Position numbers and translations under genes: made by a program. Under the pieces are notes generated by a model. That model made no database searches and was not told where the DNA came from. It saw only the letters and a program-made list of their open reading frames with translations. DNA of 11,868 bases from a virus (lineage: Duplodnaviria > Heunggongvirae > Uroviricota > Caudoviricetes): positions 1-11,868 of the IMG/VR virus record IMGVR_UViG_2778261165_000018; one strand, written 5' to 3'. This document shows, piece by piece, positions 413 to 8,832 of the stretch (positions are counted from its first letter, which is position 1; every line of letters starts with the position of its first letter).

Positions 413-486
413 AACATTTAAGCTGATGACTACCGCGCTTTTTATTGACCATTTTGCACGCAAACTGGAAAACCTGGCGTCGTCAT

Positions 487-496
487 CTATTCTTAA
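487..496 (+). promoter_or_regulatory. Sigma-S type -10 element (CTATTCTTAA) for the downstream small RNA
   Basis: CTATTCTTAA is a 9/10 match to the RpoS-type extended -10 (CTATACTTAA) and includes the -13 C. Hexamer TATTCT at 488-493 puts the predicted start near 500. Confidence 0.45.
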
Positions 497-499
497 AGG

Positions 500-603
500 G
501 CAAGGCAACTAAGCCTGCATTAATGCCAACTTTTAGCGCACGGCTCTCTCCCAAGAGCCATTTCCCTGGACCGAATACAGGAATCGTATTCGGTCTTTTT
601 TTA
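500..603 (+). ncRNA. sdsR: Candidate SdsR (RyeB) RpoS-dependent small RNA, about 104 nt
   Basis: Predicted start about 500 (GCAAGGC...). Internal palindrome GCATTAATGC (about 518-527), hairpin GGCTCT/AGAGCC (542-559), and terminal hairpin GACCGAATAC/GTATTCGGTC (569-595) followed by T7 (596-602). No ORF with an RBS. I recall sdsR/ryeA lying next to yebY in E. coli and Salmonella. Confidence 0.55.
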
Positions 604-686
604 ATTGTATTTAAAATCAATCAGTTGCAAACGTCTTCCCGAAATTCCCCGAAATTTACTCGAATTTCTGTATTCCGGTCTTTTTT
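586..686. other. Candidate prophage attL region: two core-like 17-mers, IHF consensus site and tandem 10-bp repeats
   Basis: GTATTCGGTCTTTTTTT (586-602) recurs as GTATTCCGGTCTTTTTT (670-686). IHF consensus WATCAANNNNTTR matched at 615-627 (AATCAATCAGTTG). Three 10-bp-phased repeats CCCGAAATTC / CCCGAAATTT / ACTCGAATTT at 638-667. Integrase stop lies 47 bp further in, at 734. Confidence 0.4.
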
Positions 687-2595: not shown

Positions 2596-3405
2596 TTATT
2601 CTTCTGAATTATCGATTACACTGTATTCCCCGGTTAATACAGAGGAGTCTGCCGGATCGATTGTCAGTGGTTCCTTTTCATCCATTGATACTGCACGCTG
2701 GATTTCAATTGAGACTGGCAGGTATTTAAACAGGCGACGAATAGCCGTTTTTTTTGCCATTTCTTCCCAGTGAGTTACCCATGGCCCGTTATTACCAGCC
2801 TTACTCTGGCTGCGCACCAGTTCAATCTGTTTGCGCGTCATAACTTCAAACTGAGTCCCTCCGTCTTTCAGTCTTGCGACAGCATAGACGTGGGTCACTG
2901 GTGCATCTTCGTTTTCTCCCGGGCGGTGTATTAACTTTTCATCAAGGCCAAATTCAAAACTAAACTCGTCACCTTCACGGACAACACGGGCTGACAGGCT
3001 GGCGATTTGACCAGAACGGCGAGCCAGATCAATCATGCCGCGATAACCAATGATTAGCTGAACGTTCTTTTTACCGCTCTTTTCGTTTTTATTACCAAAA
3101 GGCAGTAAATATGCGTGGCCGAGGGCGCTACCTGGCTCAAGGCCGAGCTGTGAACACTGAACGATCGCACTGACAAAACTCATGGTGTCACAGTTTCCTA
3201 GCGCCGGAACCTTACGAATTTCTGTGGTGGCGATACGTATCATTCGTTCAGCCGTCATATGGCGTGGGAGAGCTGCTGCCAGTTGCTCTTTCATTGATGG
3301 CTGATTAATAAAGCTGATCACGTCGTTATTTTTTACTGCTGCTGGTGCACGGTTTCCCTGGGTTTTTTGCAGATCGGCTTTTGCGATAGGTGGTTGCTTA
3401 GTCAT
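2596..3405 (-). CDS. recT: RecT single-strand annealing recombinase, 269 aa
   Basis: [27 protein letters not shown]... matches recalled Rac RecT over its whole length. RBS GGAG 7 nt upstream. Start overlaps the recE stop (3398-3405), indicating translational coupling. Confidence 0.9.
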
Positions 3406-6073
3406 TTGCATACTCCTTAGCCCAGCGGGGCAGTGATAACGTTTTAATAGCTGGCCATTCATCGGTATTCAGGCAGTCAGCCAGGGTCCTCAGATTGCGG
3501 TGATATTCCTGCTGGCCTGCCAGTTTTGCTTCTTCGCCCATCATGAAAATCTCAACCGGGTAACGTCCGCATTCAACAGTTGTGCTGGCAACCAGAAAAA
3601 CGAAAGTTGGCAGCACGCCAAACTGTGCTTCATAACCGTCACTGTAGAATGCATCCTGAACGTGATAGCGGTAGTCGTAATAAGCCGTTTTGAATCGTTG
3701 AATATCCGCTGTGGTTTTCACGTCCATGATCCAGTGAAATTCAGGAATAATTTTGTCCGGACGGCACCGACACAAAATTCCTGTTTCAGGATCTTCCCAG
3801 TAAATTGATGATTCAGCGTGTCCGGCGCTTTCAACAAGCCATTGACCCAGCGGCAAAGCCATAACGCTCTGATACATGAGTTCAATTTTCCGGCCTTCTT
3901 CGGCAGTGATAACCGTTTTTCCTGTGCTTGCGCATTCCATCAGAAACGCTTTCTCCTCTTCTTTTCCGGCGGTTGTACGGCGGTTAAATTCAGGTGCCAC
4001 GATAAAGCGGTTACTGAATTCTTCCGGTTCAAGTACACGGCAGTGGAAAGCGGTTCCTAAATCGAGCGTTTTTGTCTTTGTGGTGTCCACTGGGGCATTT
4101 TTACGCCACAAATACAGAGCCGGAGTATCAGCAATGTCGTCGAGCTGAGACTTACTGACACCGGGACCCGCGTGGTAATTCTCATTCGAAATTCCGTAAT
4201 AAATACCAGGCTCTATGTCTCCTGCGATTACGGGATCTGCGACTTCGCCAGTTTCATCACTGCAATCGCGATGCGGATCGCTGCCAGCATTCTCATTGTG
4301 CGGATGTTCAGGGCCTTCCATTTCCTCCGGATCTTTTTCCTGAGATTCATCCAGATTTTCTTCATTAAAGGTTTCCTGATACGTGGTGTCGCCCATCACC
4401 GCGCCACAATCAGGGCAGTTGCCGCCACCGCTCTGACCGCAGGCGGCACAGACTTTTTCCGGTTCCTGTTGCGCTACTGGTTCAGATTGTTTCGTTTCTG
4501 GCTCGTTTTTCTGTGCATTTGGGCTGTTTTGTTCCGCTTTCTGGTTGTTTTGTTCCGATTCGGGCTGGTTCTGGTTCACAGAATCTCGGGTTTCAATTCC
4601 CTTAACCCATTTCGGATCATTCGGGTCGCTAATCCCTTCAACAAATTCTCCGCGAGAGGCAGCCAGCAATTTGTCGGCATCGACAGGATTTTTGGGCGGA
4701 ATGGTTTTCCGGGCTTCATGGAGTTCTGCCCGCAGTTTCTGATATTTCGCATCAACAGAATTTACCTGTGACTGAGCATCCAGCGGCTGCGTGTCCTGAT
4801 GATGTTCAGTTGCATCCGGTTCCACTGTTTCAGCCGTTGCCTGTTTATCTGCCATTGCGCAAGATGGTTGCGGTTTTTCTTCACCATCGTGTTTTCCTTC
4901 TTCTGTTACACGCTGCGGCATCGGGGCAGAGGAACGACCGCAGGCAATATCCACGATTTCCGGATCAGGGTTGGCATGATCGGTTTCAATCAGCACCTTG
5001 TTCAGATATTCAGTGACATGCGCAGGGATAACCTCGATCCCAATTGGTGCTTCTTTTACGGACGCAACCACGATGGCGCGGGAATAATCCAGCCCGCCAG
5101 GCATGGTGATGAATTTGTCGCGGAAAACAGAAAAGGGCGGTTTATTTTCAGCGATAATTTCCTCGACACGTTTAGCGTGTGCCGGATGAAGGTTATAAAT
5201 GTCCACGTCCATTGAACGAGCCAGTACGCCAGTGGCTACGTCGCGCGCCAGTGACGTCAGATCGTGAACGAAACCTTCGCCGCGATCGGTGAGGTTCCCG
5301 CCGCCAGCATTAGCGCCGGAAGCCGTGCGCGTGATGCGTGAAACACGATTTCCTTTCATCCACTCTTTTGTCAGCAGACCGCGATCGGTGTAGTCTGCGT
5401 CCAGGTATGCTTCGAAAAAAGCAGTCATCAGCCCCAGGCTTGAATTGCCTGGATTAGGGAACACTCTGTCAGTATCACGCACCAGTTTGTGGAGATCGCG
5501 AATTTCCAGCGGGTCGAGCAGGCTGGTTTTGTGGGAAACAGCCAGGGCAGTAACAGCTGGTAGTTCTTCAGCCCGTGCAATGTGTAATGCCTGGAGTTCG
5601 TCGCGTGAAACGTGCGTTACCGGTTTTTCGCTGCCGTGTTGAGCAAGCCAGCGAATGGGCAGCTCCTGACCGGAAATCGGGAGTAGCATATTCTCCTCAA
5701 TCTCCGTCATGTCTTCGCCATTAACATTGGTATTGTCAGTGCTGGCTGGCTTGTCCTGCGCAGAGGATGAGGGCGCGATAAATACCATTGTGATGCCATC
5801 TTCCCCGCCTTTTTCGTAACGGTTGCAGAATTCCGTATCAAATACGCCTTCTGGTGGAAGGTCATCAACAACGGGCAAATTGACGCAAACAGGTTTTTTA
5901 AAGTCATCTTCATCGTAGCCAGCATCGTCAATCGCAACAGCACCACGGGAGATGGCAATGGATAATTTTTTCGCTTCAGCCCAGTAGAAACCGCCTTTAA
6001 TACCGAGACGTTTTCTTACTTTGTCATTTTTTGCTTCGTAATACAGTGGGTAAACTTGTTTATCGGTGCTCAT
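3398..6073 (-). CDS. recE: RecE exonuclease VIII, 891 aa
   Basis: C-terminal two-thirds (from [17 protein letters not shown] to the end ...[11 protein letters not shown]) matches recalled K-12 RecE, including the nuclease domain. The N-terminal roughly 110 residues differ from what I recall. ATG at 6073 with RBS GAGGT. Confidence 0.9.
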
Positions 6074-6693: not shown

Positions 6694-6914
6694 TACCATG
6701 ACTCCGCCTTTACAGGTAAACCATCACGACCGAGGAAGACTCTAATCATGCAGTCAGAAATGCATGTTTTTGTAGTCAGGCTACGAATATAAAGTTTTCG
6801 CTTTTTAATATTGTTTGCCGAGGCGATATATGTCCGACCTTCATGAAGAACATAATCGCCAGGGGTCACACACTGACGTGGTATTTCATCAGTTCCGAAG
6901 TGATGAGCAATCAT
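6693..6914 (-). CDS. kilR: KilR cell-division inhibitor, 73 aa
   Basis: [35 protein letters not shown]... matches recalled K-12 KilR. RBS GGAGAT 6 nt upstream of the ATG at 6914. Confidence 0.8.
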
Positions 6915-7419
6915 AATTATCTCCATTTTTACAAATGAATTTTGTCGATGCGGTGCCTGGTGCCTCCAGGTGACGTTAACCAGTTAACAATTAACGCCGG
7001 ATCGTGATATCACCTAAACAGATACGGGTTGTTTTTAACTGTTCCGCGTGCGCTGAGCCGCATTCACCGCATCACAAAATTCACTTTAAAAAGGACGGAC
7101 ATCAGCCAGCAATGAAACTGATGCCGCCAAAAGGTAATCAACATGGGTTGTTGCAGCGGGGTTGTCACTCAAGCGTATGGTCAACCTGACAACCCGGTGC
7201 TCCACAGGGGGAGGGAGAATAGCACCCCTGCCATACTTACCGCCGCGCCATTTCGCGGATTGCCACAACCGGAAGCGCACGGTCGAAGAAATTTAAAGAC
7301 AAGCCTTCTAAGGGAAAAACACCTCCTCCGTGCGCTTTCGTGTTGTGCGCCTGTCTTTTTACCACTTCAGGCTCGGTGGTATACTGGAGTTCTCACACAA
7401 CCAGTAATAAGGTATTCCG

Positions 7420-7614
7420 ATGGATAATAAAGACAAAGCCTGGCTACTTGCTTTAGCTTTCAGCATCAGATCGCAGCGAGAAACAACTCATCAAGAATTT
7501 TTCTCGGAAATCGAGAATGCTGAGAATGAGTTTTTGTCACTACTCAATGAACGTGATGCTAAAAAAAGCGCCGATTCACTTAAGGCTTGGGCGAAACTAG
7601 GCTCTTCAAAATAA
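7420..7614 (+). CDS. Hypothetical 64 aa protein in the position K-12 Rac gives to sieB
   Basis: ATG at 7420 with RBS AAGGT 6 nt upstream. Candidate promoter TTTTAC (7357-7362), 17 nt spacer, TATACT (7380-7385). No hydrophobic segment, so unlike a SieB membrane protein. Confidence 0.4.
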   Translation: MDNKDKAWLLALAFSIRSQRETTHQEFFSEIENAENEFLSLLNERDAKKSADSLKAWAKLGSSK

Positions 7615-7798
7615 TTGCTTCTGTAGCGGCATGAACAACTGTTTTTGCCGCCTCTTCAACTTCCTTGTCTGGACGACCAGCCTTTACTTTTTCTGCAATG
7701 ACCTCCAGCACAGTTGGAAGAACCTTGCTAATAAGCATGGCTGCCACATCTTTGCTGCACAATTGACCGTTAATAACAACCAGATCTTCACCAACCAT
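7580..7798 (-). CDS. Hypothetical 72 aa protein (possibly the intact form of the short ydaF/ydaG genes of K-12 Rac)
   Basis: ATG at 7798 with strong RBS AAGGGG 7 nt upstream. The track ORF extends to a TTG at 7855 without an RBS. Its 3' end overlaps the convergent 64 aa gene by 35 nt. Confidence 0.5.
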   Translation of the reverse strand: MVGEDLVVINGQLCSKDVAAMLISKVLPTVLEVIAEKVKAGRPDKEVEEAAKTVVHAATEAIILKSLVSPKP

Positions 7799-7977
7799 CT
7801 TTTTTCCCCTTAACGCCGGGTGGCGGAACGTTTTATCTACTGCGCTTTGTATCAATCAACAACTGCCGTCATGTTCGTATGCCTCAGGCTGGCTACTTAG
7901 CCCTGTTCAGTGGCTGGATAACTCGAGGTATTGTCCTGCCGTTCTCTGGTGGGGCGTTGTTTGGATATGACAAATGC

Positions 7978-7990
7978 TCACATATCGTGA
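7978..7990 (-). promoter_or_regulatory. Isolated operator-like site TCACGATATGTGA (read on the minus strand)
   Basis: Exact match to the TCACG-N3-TGTGA motif found three times in the racR/ydaS intergenic region. A perfect TTGACA lies on the minus strand at 8003-7998. Confidence 0.4.
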
Positions 7991-8043
7991 GTGATTTGTC
8001 AACTCAATATGTGAGCAATGTTGTTTTTGGATTTTTGATGGAC

Positions 8044-8076
8044 AAAAAAAGCCCTCGCTAATAGCGAGAGCTTTTT
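8044..8076. terminator. Bidirectional intrinsic terminator downstream of the repressor gene
   Basis: A7 (8044-8050), hairpin GCCCTCGCT/AGCGAGAGC (8051-8071), then TTTTT (8072-8076). Has terminator form in both orientations. Confidence 0.6.
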
Positions 8077-8102
8077 GATTGGAATCGAGGGAGATTAAAG
8101 GT

Positions 8103-8492
8103 TTAGGAGGATTTTTTCTGTTGCCTGCTTCTTAGATATTTTTCCACATACTCATCAAGCTCTTGAAGACGGATTTCGAACAGATCAATCATGCGTGCTT
8201 GTTCTGATCCCGGGAGCTGATTAAACAGCTCTAGCATTTTTTTCTGGTTATCATTTAACCATGAGTACGTGTTTTCCTGTTCACCGAACATTAATTCTGC
8301 GGGGGAAATGCCTAGTACTTGGCCGAGGATGATCGCATCCTCAGCCCCCACACTCCTGGTGCCAGCTTCGTAGTTAGCAATACGAGAAGAACCTGACCAA
8401 CCACATAGTTTTGCCAGGTTTCCCATACTTAATCCTCGATTTAGGCGAGTGGCTTTTAGGCGCTCGCCTATTTGTTCTGCAATCGTTTTCAT
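8103..8492 (-). CDS. racR: Prophage repressor, XRE/Cro-C1 family HTH (RacR-like), 129 aa from the ATG
   Basis: HTH signature LSMGNLAKLCGWSGSSRIANYEAG. Divergent from the cro-like ydaS across an operator-bearing intergenic region. Start taken at MKTIAEQ (8492); the track ORF extends upstream from a TTG. Confidence 0.75.
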   Translation of the reverse strand: MKTIAEQIGERLKATRLNRGLSMGNLAKLCGWSGSSRIANYEAGTRSVGAEDAIILGQVLGISPAELMFGEQENTYSWLNDNQKKMLELFNQLPGSEQARMIDLFEIRLQELDEYVEKYLRSRQQKKSS

Positions 8493-8505
8493 AGTTCCGA
8501 TTTTA

Positions 8506-8567
8506 TCACGATGTGTGAAATTGGCGGTACTCACGTATCTGTAGTTGATCTCACTCACGAAATGTGA
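8506..8567. promoter_or_regulatory. Three-site operator array (OR-like) between racR and ydaS
   Basis: TCACGATGTGTGA (8506-8518), TCACGTATCTGTA (8531-8543), TCACGAAATGTGA (8555-8567). Near-palindromic 13-mers spaced 25 and 24 bp centre to centre. Confidence 0.55.
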
Positions 8568-8572
8568 ATAAT
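8545..8572 (+). promoter_or_regulatory. Candidate rightward promoter for ydaS (pR-like)
   Basis: -35 TTGATC (8545-8550), 16 nt spacer, -10 AATAAT (8567-8572). Operator site 3 overlaps the spacer and -10. Confidence 0.35.
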
Positions 8573-8586
8573 AGAAACAGGAGGTA

Positions 8587-8832
8587 ATGATGAACAAAAT
8601 TTCAACATATCGAAAACAGCTTGGGCTGTCTCAAAGACAACTTGCTGTTCAGTTAGGGTGGATACAAAGCCGACTGGCAAATTACGAAGCAAATTTTCGT
8701 ACCCCTGGGCTAGAGGAGTGCAGAAAAATTGTTTCTACCCTTAATCGGCTTGGTGCTCATTGTGGACTTGACGATGTATTCCCCCCAGACGGTAAGCATA
8801 GCGAAAACAGCATAGGAGCGGTTGATTCATGA
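8587..8832 (+). CDS. ydaS: Cro-like HTH regulator YdaS
   Basis: HTH region LSQRQLAVQLGWIQSRLANYE. RBS GAGG fits the second ATG at 8590 better. Stop overlaps the ydaT start (ATGA at 8829-8832). Confidence 0.8.
   Translation: MMNKISTYRKQLGLSQRQLAVQLGWIQSRLANYEANFRTPGLEECRKIVSTLNRLGAHCGLDDVFPPDGKHSENSIGAVDS

What the first reader, a model, noticed from the sequence alone, without database searches (positions are those of the whole stretch)
7420..7798. Convergent, 3'-overlapping pair of small genes in the slot where K-12 Rac has sieB
A 64 aa gene (+) and a 72 aa gene (-) each have a good RBS, and their 3' ends overlap by 35 nt, forcing antisense pairing between the two mRNAs. The 64 aa product has no hydrophobic segment, unlike a SieB membrane protein. 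A small accessory module of this shape could be an exclusion, toxin-antitoxin or regulatory pair. The 72 aa gene may be the intact form of the short ydaF/ydaG ORFs that I recall from K-12.
Basis: partly seen in the sequence, partly recalled or inferred. Interest (0 to 1): 0.5.

Follow-up and report, generated by a model that had tools for sequence, protein, structure and literature searches.

The report
Conserved overlapping prophage small-gene pair
Two small tail-to-tail overlapping genes of unknown function are real and form a conserved cassette next to the repressor gene of Rac/lambda-like prophages, where K-12 has sieB-ydaF-ydaG; the sequence signals suggest one is on in the dormant prophage and the other switches on when the phage wakes.

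Summary
A 64-aa gene (A64, 7420-7614, +) and a 72-aa gene (B72, 7580-7798, -) overlap by 35 nt at their 3' ends, and both have good ribosome-binding sites. Both are real genes. Both orthologues recur as the same convergent overlapping pair in about 50 prophage loci from eight enterobacterial genera, with dN/dS of 0.06-0.4 outside the overlap.

The cassette exactly replaces sieB-ydaF-ydaG of K-12 Rac, between two conserved non-coding elements. It is neither a sieB remnant nor an intact ydaF/ydaG, since no similarity was found.

B72 is the first gene downstream of the repressor's left operators, or the second after N, so it should be repressed in lysogens. A64 lies antisense to it in the position and orientation of sieB, behind its own promoter-like site with no operator.

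Neither protein matches any known family, defence system or fold. AlphaFold predicts small helical proteins.

The best reading is an excludon-like on/off pair: A64 in the lysogen and B72 early in lytic growth. The products may be antagonists, as with SieB/Esc. That function is inferred, not shown. The cassette is rare: 29 of 5,426 complete E. coli genomes. Interest is moderate.

The parts
7420..7614 (+). A64: 64-aa acidic, soluble, all-helical protein gene (PHROG 22868, WP_001419881.1). It has the position and orientation of sieB.
   Evidence: dN/dS is 0.06-0.18. AlphaFold2 gives helices 3-19 and 24-62 at pLDDT 79. Orthologues of 56-64 aa occur in eight genera.
7580..7798 (-). B72: 72-aa protein gene (PHROG 23495, WP_000232638.1). 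It is the first gene of the leftward early operon.
   Evidence: dN/dS is mostly 0.09-0.4. AlphaFold2 gives a beta-hairpin at 6-15 and helices 16-39 and 44-67 at pLDDT 82. Only 15 representative clusters match among 1.84 billion proteins.
7580..7614 (.). The 35-nt stretch coded on both strands at the two 3' ends (B72 ...ILKSLVSPKP*, A64 ...LKAWAKLGSSK*).
   Evidence: Nucleotide identity between the E. coli type and the Klebsiella type is 84% here, against 67% in B72-only and 56% in A64-only sequence. The overlap is 35 nt in most loci, 32 or 29 nt in some, and 9 nt in one frameshifted locus.
7349..7405 (+). Conserved leader of the antisense slot. It contains the promoter-like site TTTACC-16 nt-TATACT preceded by TG (extended -10) at 7358-7385, followed by a short 5' UTR.
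   Evidence: Promoter scan. The element is nearly identical between E. coli and Klebsiella versions although their coding DNA is 56-67% identical. The same element lies upstream of sieB in lambda and in K-12 Rac. No operator motif is present.
7799..7949 (-). Transcribed leader of the leftward operon, including the B72 ribosome-binding site and the conserved block AACGTTCCGCCACCCGGCGTTAAGGGG.
   Evidence: It is 76% identical to the ydaG leader of K-12. The block is also conserved in Salmonella and Klebsiella loci.
7974..8017 (-). Putative oL/pL: TTGACA (8002-7997), 17 nt, GAGCAT (7979-7974), with the operator palindrome CTCACGATATGTGAG (7991-7977) in the spacer and a second arm at 8007-8017.
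   Evidence: Inverted repeats I1, I4 and I8. The motif CTCAC-N5-GTGA is found as palindromic sites only here and twice between the repressor and cro-like genes at 8505-8519 and 8554-8568. The promoter hexamers are my reading, and the -10 is weak.
8046..8076 (.). Palindromic intrinsic terminator after the repressor gene. It separates the repressor transcript from pL.
   Evidence: (I2), and the sequence (GCTCTCGCTATTAGCGAGGGC followed by T7 on the - strand).
8103..8492 (-). Prophage repressor (129 aa, HTH_3/HTH_31). Its immunity type differs from K-12 RacR.
   Evidence: There is no DNA homology to K-12 over 7950-8822.

Best explanation
A64 and B72 form a two-gene accessory cassette in the antisense ('sieB') slot at the start of the leftward early operon of Rac- and lambda-like prophages.

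Shown from sequence:
- B72 lies directly downstream of the repressor's left operators, or right after N where N exists. It should therefore be silent in the lysogen and be one of the first proteins made on induction or infection.
- A64 lies on the opposite strand behind its own sigma-70-type site with an extended -10 and no operator.

Inferred:
- A64 is made in the lysogen.
- The two transcription units converge and their coding regions overlap. Strong pL transcription should therefore shut A64 off through collision and duplex RNA, and A64 transcription should damp leaky B72 expression. This is an excludon-like switch.
- The two small helical proteins are functional partners. Most likely A64 is a prophage-state effector, for example an exclusion or protection factor. 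B72 would then be the phage's own early counter-factor, analogous in logic to SieB/Esc.
For: - Anatomy.
- Operators between repressor gene and B72 also occur in other immunity types. L003 has three ACAGTTTTATCTGT copies in oR and three in oL about 100 nt upstream of B72. L047 has ATCGC...GCGAT sites on both sides of the repressor gene.
- B72 follows an N_peptide gene by 4 nt in L051.
- In K-12, the genes in the B72 position (ydaG, ydaF) and kilR rise 40-70-fold when RacR control is perturbed, and sieB is not on that list (PMC11014345).
- sieB-ydaF is listed as a convergent excludon from RNA-seq (PMC12288877).
- Lambda has the same layout: sieB (+) ends at 35036 and N (-) at 35037.
- The pair stays together with a 29-35 nt overlap in about 50 loci across changing backbones: RacR-type or S24 cI-type repressors, KilR or lambda Kil, RecET or ERF or Rad52, with or without N.
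- Both are under purifying selection.
Against: - There are no expression data of any kind. Both promoters are consensus matches, and the pL -10 is weak.
- No homology or fold match gives either protein a function.
- I could not model a complex, so no protein-protein interaction is shown.
- Remote B72 relatives exist without A64. L056 has a co-directional neighbour instead, and L057 has a 143-aa fusion facing a different 80-aa antisense ORF.
- Single-gene decay occurs both ways. A64 frameshift variants occur with intact B72, and in L053 A64 sits beside a decayed B72.
- The physical overlap alone would keep the two genes linked.
Confidence: 0.35

Rival explanations
1. Two unrelated small accessory genes that happen to share a slot. 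The convergent layout is a property of this position in lambdoid genomes, and the 3' overlap arose once and now simply locks the genes together. There is no functional interaction beyond generic transcriptional interference.
For: - The same layout holds for unrelated pairs: N/sieB in lambda and ydaF/sieB in K-12 with a 4-nt overlap.
- The conserved promoter element belongs to the slot, not to A64. It also lies upstream of sieB in lambda and K-12 and upstream of a different ORF in L057.
- B72 relatives occur without A64.
- Either gene can decay alone.
Against: The pair was not found split among about 50 loci, although synonymous sites are saturated between lineages and both flanks have been reassorted repeatedly. 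The cassette is only 379 nt, so this argument is suggestive rather than strong.
Confidence: 0.3
2. A toxin-antitoxin-like safety device. B72 is a harmful early protein, comparable to Kil. A64 protein and/or the A64 transcript neutralises leaky B72 in the lysogen.
For: - B72 is the more hydrophobic partner: maximum 19-residue Kyte-Doolittle mean 1.61, GRAVY +0.39.
- B72 sits in an operon of host-targeting early genes (kil and ralR are nearby).
- The antisense overlap is typical of type I systems.
- The two genes co-occur closely.
Against: - There is no hit to any toxin, antitoxin or defence profile.
- The antisense partner is a protein under strong purifying selection, not a non-coding RNA.
- The hydrophobic helix of B72 carries conserved charged residues, and B72 models as a soluble-looking helical hairpin.
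- Genomes with a frameshifted A64 keep an intact B72: P0029 occurs on 30 contigs, and 5 of 29 complete genomes carry the 380-nt version.
Confidence: 0.2
3. One or both ORFs are spurious, and the region is non-coding, a sieB deletion remnant, or the intact form of ydaF/ydaG.
For: Many chance ORFs of this size exist in the window. Neither protein has a Pfam family.
Against: - Both show purifying selection and third-position periodicity.
- Both lengths are conserved across genera.
- There is no similarity to SieB, YdaF or YdaG at DNA, protein or profile level.
Confidence: 0.02

Closest known systems
Lambda N/sieB and K-12 Rac ydaG-ydaF/sieB arrangement
   Same: A rightward gene is embedded antisense in the leftward early operon, tail-to-tail with the first pL gene(s). 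The gap is 0 nt in lambda and the overlap is 4 nt in K-12. The same conserved element lies upstream of the antisense gene, and the same leader lies upstream of the first pL gene.
   Different: A64 is a 64-aa soluble helical protein, not a roughly 160-aa membrane protein. B72 is unrelated to N, YdaF or YdaG. The overlap is 29-35 nt of dual-coding sequence, and the two partners travel together.
P22 sieB / esc / sas (Ranade and Poteete 1993, as summarised in PMC12197685, PMC7067206 and PMC3224144)
   Same: This is a prophage-state exclusion gene in the same slot. The phage escapes from it through a second product (Esc) and an antisense RNA. It is the logic I propose for A64 and B72.
   Different: Esc is an in-frame internal product of sieB, and sas is a non-coding RNA. 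Here the two partners are separate proteins on opposite strands. No exclusion phenotype is known for A64.
Excludons, meaning convergent transcription units with overlapping transcripts (PMC12288877)
   Same: The genes are convergent, their mRNAs must overlap, and the expected result is transcriptional interference and RNase III cleavage giving either/or expression.
   Different: Typical excludons overlap in untranslated regions. Here the coding regions themselves overlap, in the most constrained phase. No transcript data exist for this pair.
Lambda OOP RNA and the cII 3' end (PMC7067206)
   Same: A convergent transcript overlaps the 3' end of a lambdoid early gene and lowers its expression.
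   Different: OOP is a short non-coding RNA in the rightward operon, whereas the A64 transcript encodes a conserved protein.

Membership tests
SieB superinfection exclusion protein | Sequence similarity to SieB | tested here: not met
   blastp and tblastn give no significant hit. hhalign of the A64 profile against K-12 SieB gives probability 0.1.
SieB superinfection exclusion protein | Membrane protein of about 160-190 aa with hydrophobic segments | tested here: not met
   A64 is 64 aa. Its maximum 19-residue Kyte-Doolittle mean is -0.13, against 2.19 for SieB.
SieB superinfection exclusion protein | Position antisense within the pL operon, tail-to-tail with the first pL gene | tested here: met
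   This is a positional resemblance, not membership.
SieB superinfection exclusion protein | Aborts lytic growth of superinfecting phage | not testable with these tools
   This needs plating assays.
YdaF (DUF1391) / YdaG | Sequence or profile similarity of B72 to YdaF or YdaG | tested here: not met
   There is no Pfam DUF1391 hit. blastp E-values are above 10. hhalign probability is 0.1.
Excludon | Convergent genes whose transcripts necessarily overlap | tested here: met
   The coding regions overlap by 35 nt, and this is conserved at 29-35 nt across loci.
Excludon | Independent promoters on both sides | tested here: inconclusive
   There is a consensus match with an extended -10 for A64. For B72 there is a TTGACA-17-GAGCAT site overlapped by an operator. 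Both are predictions only.
Excludon | Mutually exclusive expression and RNase III processing | not testable with these tools
   This needs strand-specific RNA-seq with and without induction and in an rnc mutant.
Type I toxin-antitoxin | Antitoxin is a non-coding antisense RNA | tested here: not met
   The antisense partner encodes a protein with dN/dS of 0.06-0.18 and a conserved length.
Type I toxin-antitoxin | Toxin is a small hydrophobic membrane peptide | tested here: inconclusive
   B72 has a borderline maximum 19-residue Kyte-Doolittle mean of 1.61, but there are conserved K and E residues in that helix. The AlphaFold2 model is a helical hairpin with a beta-hairpin.
Type II toxin-antitoxin / known anti-phage defence systems | Match to a known toxin, antitoxin or defence profile, and a co-directional operon | tested here: not met
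   Pfam, NCBIfam and PADLOC give no hit. The genes are convergent.
Lambda N-type antiterminator | N_peptide or arginine-rich motif in the first pL gene | tested here: not met
   B72 has no Pfam hit. In L051 and L056 a separate N_peptide gene precedes the B72 homologue.

The most novel reading that the evidence does not exclude
A64 and B72 are a previously unrecognised prophage system in which a lysogen-expressed small protein (exclusion, defence or lysogeny-stabilising factor) and a phage-early small protein that neutralises it are encoded on opposite strands. Their 3' ends share dual-coding sequence, so RNA-level either/or expression and protein-level antagonism are built into one 379-nt unit. 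The unit is carried by a promoter-bearing antisense slot common to lambda, Rac and their relatives.
Probability: 0.25. Interest if true: 0.65.

Novelty: new variant of a known kind. Interest (0 to 1): 0.4.

Why it matters
The region just left of the repressor gene in lambdoid prophages is where lysogen-expressed protection genes such as rex, sieB and nun sit.

This cassette is a compact, conserved and completely uncharacterised occupant of that slot. Its two proteins (PHROG 22868 and 23495) have no known relatives or folds.

If the two products are antagonists, it would be a minimal model for how a prophage arms its host and still lets itself escape. It would also be a clean case of overlapping convergent genes as a genetic switch.

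The conserved element that it shares with lambda and Rac sieB suggests a common, still undescribed expression signal for this slot.

If instead the two genes are independent, the finding is an ordinary pair of small prophage accessory genes.

Tried and rejected
- **Homology to K-12 SieB, YdaF and YdaG** at DNA, protein and profile level: none found. The 'intact ydaF/ydaG' and 'sieB remnant' ideas are rejected.
- **Family and defence libraries:** Pfam, NCBIfam and PADLOC give nothing. PHROGs gives only two unknown-function families.
- **Exhaustive HMM search with the B72 profile** over 1.84 billion representatives: only 15 hits, all small unannotated proteins.
- **Fold searches and PDB sequence profiles:**
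  - BFVD gave E-values above 0.1.
  - Foldseek against the PDB for A64 gave E-values above 4.
  - PDB sequence profiles gave nothing. All are uninformative.
- **A64 and B72 related to each other:** no.
- **Scan of GTDB species-representative genomes:** no locus found.
- **Rfam:** nothing at gathering threshold in the cassette. Sub-threshold matches lie only in the kil leader and at the terminator after the repressor gene.
- **RNA folding of the A64 transcript region:** z-score -1.5, not significant. The hairpin GCGGCA...TGCCGC just after the A64 stop coincides with the conserved AAxTVVxAA codons of B72, and I do not count it as a terminator.
- **Hairpin reading of the conserved A64 leader:** set aside in favour of a promoter. 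The Salmonella version (L008) keeps the -35 and extended -10 but has a different spacer.
- **Ranade and Poteete 1993 (PMC204922):** the paper is not held.

Full report
**Observation.**
- A64 runs 7420-7614 on the + strand (64 aa, AAGG 7 nt before the ATG).
- B72 runs 7798-7580 on the - strand (72 aa, AAGGGG 7 nt before the ATG).
- The two coding regions share 7580-7614, which is 35 nt.

The relative phase puts codon position 1 against 1, 2 against 3 and 3 against 2, so every wobble base of one gene is a second position of the other. PGAP annotates both as hypothetical proteins in an identical prophage.

**Are they genes?** ORFs of this size are common by chance: the window has 47 ORFs of 60 aa or more. 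I therefore relied on comparison.
- Homologues of B72 and A64 were found in Escherichia, Shigella, Salmonella, Klebsiella, Raoultella, Citrobacter, Superficieibacter and Edwardsiella.
- On the non-overlapping parts, dN/dS is 0.09-0.64 for B72 (mostly 0.4 or below) and 0.06-0.18 for A64.
- Variable sites pile up at third codon positions in both frames.
- Lengths are conserved: 71-72 aa for B72 and 58-64 aa for A64.

Both are real protein-coding genes.

**Context and the K-12 comparison.** The window is a Rac-like prophage. Its gene order is int, xis, ralR/RalA, recT, recE, kil, then the pair, then an HTH repressor, a cro-like gene, ydaT and ydaV. K-12 Rac has kilR, kilS, sieB (+), ydaF (-), ydaG (-) and racR in the same place.

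Between kil and ydaT, DNA homology between the two is limited to two short blocks:
- window 7331-7380 matches the region upstream of K-12 sieB (81%);
- window 7794-7949 matches the start codon and leader of ydaG (76%).

Everything between these blocks is swapped: 413 nt here against 850 nt in K-12. SieB, YdaF and YdaG have no similarity to A64 or B72 by blastp, tblastn or profile comparison, and the window holds no sieB remnant. The slot assignment is therefore right, but the idea that B72 is an intact ydaF/ydaG is wrong.

**Regulatory anatomy: the B72 side.** The repressor gene (8492-8103) is followed by a palindromic terminator at 8046-8076. Next comes a perfect operator-like palindrome, CTCACGATATGTGAG, at 7977-7991. 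Its motif recurs as palindromic sites only between the repressor and cro-like genes, at 8505-8519 and 8554-8568. The left copy sits between TTGACA (8002-7997) and GAGCAT (7979-7974), which I read as pL. The -10 is weak, and this is an inference.

B72 is the first gene after this site. The same holds in other immunity types:
- In Klebsiella L003, three ACAGTTTTATCTGT sites lie on each side of an S24 cI gene, and the left set is about 100 nt upstream of the B72 homologue.
- In Edwardsiella L047, ATCGC...GCGAT sites flank the repressor gene in the same way.
- Where an N gene exists, B72 follows it by 4 nt (L051; also L056).

In K-12, ydaG, ydaF and kilR rise 40-70-fold when RacR control is disturbed, and sieB is not among the genes listed (PMC11014345).

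**Regulatory anatomy: the A64 side.** A64 has its own promoter-like site, TTTACC-16 nt-TATACT preceded by TG, at 7358-7385. It has no operator motif.

The roughly 55 nt around this site are nearly identical between the E. coli and Klebsiella versions, although their coding DNA is only 56-67% identical. The Salmonella version keeps the -35 and extended -10 but has another spacer, which favours a promoter over a hairpin.

The same element lies upstream of sieB in lambda and in K-12 Rac. In L057 it lies upstream of an unrelated 80-aa antisense ORF. It therefore belongs to the slot rather than to A64.

**Distribution and linkage.**
- Of the 39 loci examined, 38 have a convergent overlapping partner ORF beside the B72 homologue.
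- One search finds an A64-type start in 52 loci, including the window. One of these is L053, described below.
- The overlap is 35 nt in most loci, 32 nt in L005, 29 nt in L045, L047 and L051, and 9 nt in one frameshifted locus.
- The backbones differ: RacR-type or S24 repressors; KilR or lambda Kil; RecET, ERF or Rad52; with or without N.

There are exceptions.
- L053 has a shortened A64 next to a decayed B72.
- L013 has no A64 ORF.
- Frameshifts at the A7 tract (7561-7567) truncate A64 in some E. coli (5 of 29 genomes).
- Remote B72 relatives occur without A64 in L056 and L057.

The cassette is rare.
- It is present in 29 of 5,426 complete E. coli genomes, whereas 2,843 genomes match the 701-nt query that included the flanks, mostly at 80-90% identity.
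- It occurs in 1 of 50,697 phage records and 1 plasmid record.
- It is absent from GTDB species representatives.

**The proteins.** B72 models as a beta-hairpin plus a helical hairpin (pLDDT 82). A64 models as a short helix plus a long helix (pLDDT 79). Both are mildly acidic. B72 is moderately hydrophobic and A64 is hydrophilic. No family, defence-system, PDB-sequence or fold match is meaningful. No paper mentions their accessions or PHROG numbers.

**Mechanism.** The shown facts are:
- both are genes;
- B72 sits downstream of oL;
- A64 is antisense to it, with a conserved promoter-like element that lacks an operator;
- the coding overlap is conserved, and the two genes are linked.

From these I infer that A64 is a prophage-state gene and B72 an early lytic gene. 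Convergent transcription and duplex formation should make their expression either/or, as described for excludons. K-12 sieB-ydaF is already listed as one (PMC12288877).

That the two proteins are antagonistic partners, in the manner of SieB/Esc, is a weaker inference. It rests on co-inheritance and on the precedent of the slot (PMC12197685, PMC3224144).

I give this combined reading 0.35. The rivals are:
- independent accessory genes locked together by their overlap, 0.30;
- a toxin-antitoxin-like safety device with B72 as the harmful partner, 0.20;
- spurious ORFs, a sieB remnant or an intact ydaF/ydaG, about 0.02.

**Comparison and novelty.** The layout is the known lambda N/sieB and Rac ydaF/sieB layout, and it works like an excludon. 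The components are members of none of the families considered; the membership table gives the tests. I class it as a new variant of a known kind. It is a different, two-protein occupant of the sieB slot, with a conserved dual-coding overlap.

**Verdict.** Interest is 0.4. The cassette is well defined, conserved and testable, but it has no demonstrated function, and an ordinary explanation remains quite possible.

Noticed in passing
window 7349-7405; L054 1398-1432 (lambda about 34397-34431); L002 6550-6602; L057 about 3510-3570 (-): A conserved element of about 55 nt (GCCTGTCTTTT.ACCAC.TCAGGCTCGGTGGT...) lies upstream of whatever gene occupies the antisense slot. That gene is A64 here, sieB in lambda and K-12 Rac, and an unrelated 80-aa ORF in L057. 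It is far better conserved than the adjacent coding DNA. I found no description of it in the papers I could search.
   Followed up: partly
window 7354-7379 and 7798-7823: A 26-nt direct repeat (77% identity) brackets the cassette. One copy is in the A64 promoter element and the other covers the B72 start codon (7796-7798) and ribosome-binding site. It could be a trace of how cassettes are exchanged, or it could be chance.
   Followed up: no
window 7093-7143 (-) and 6907-7104 (-): The kil leader gives a sub-threshold DicF-like Rfam match (28.6 bits, gathering score 48) and an STnc100-like match (40.5 bits, gathering score 47), with a terminator at 7125-7098. This is the position of the annotated kilS sRNA in K-12.
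   Followed up: no
window 7561-7567: An A7 tract inside A64 is a frameshift hot spot. Loss of one A gives the 59-aa variant P0029 (30 contigs), and gain of one A gives the 54-aa variant P0030. Five of the 29 complete E. coli genomes with the cassette carry a 380-nt version in which only one gene is annotated.
   Followed up: partly
window 7977-7991, 8505-8519, 8554-8568; terminator 8046-8076: Operator-like palindromes (CTCAC-N5-GTGAG) lie on both sides of the repressor gene, and a bidirectional terminator lies after it. The immunity region 7950-8822 has no DNA homology to K-12 racR-ydaS.
   Followed up: partly
L057 3001-3432 (+) and about 3260-3500 (-); L056 3001-3219: Remote B72 relatives differ in their partners. 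One is a 143-aa fusion overlapped by roughly 170 nt by an uncalled 80-aa antisense ORF that uses the same slot promoter. The other follows N and has a co-directional 132-aa neighbour and no antisense partner.
   Followed up: partly
window 462-606 and 2168-2346: SraC/RyeA and SdsR/RyeB lie next to the integrase end of the prophage, so this Rac-like element is not at the K-12 Rac site. The RalA antitoxin sRNA of the ralR type I system is intact (215.8 bits).
   Followed up: no
L055 (MK416007.1, record 4149-4337): In Klebsiella phage ST405-OXA48phi1.2, the only deposited phage record with the cassette, the A64 homologue is not annotated. Only the B72 homologue is.
   Followed up: no
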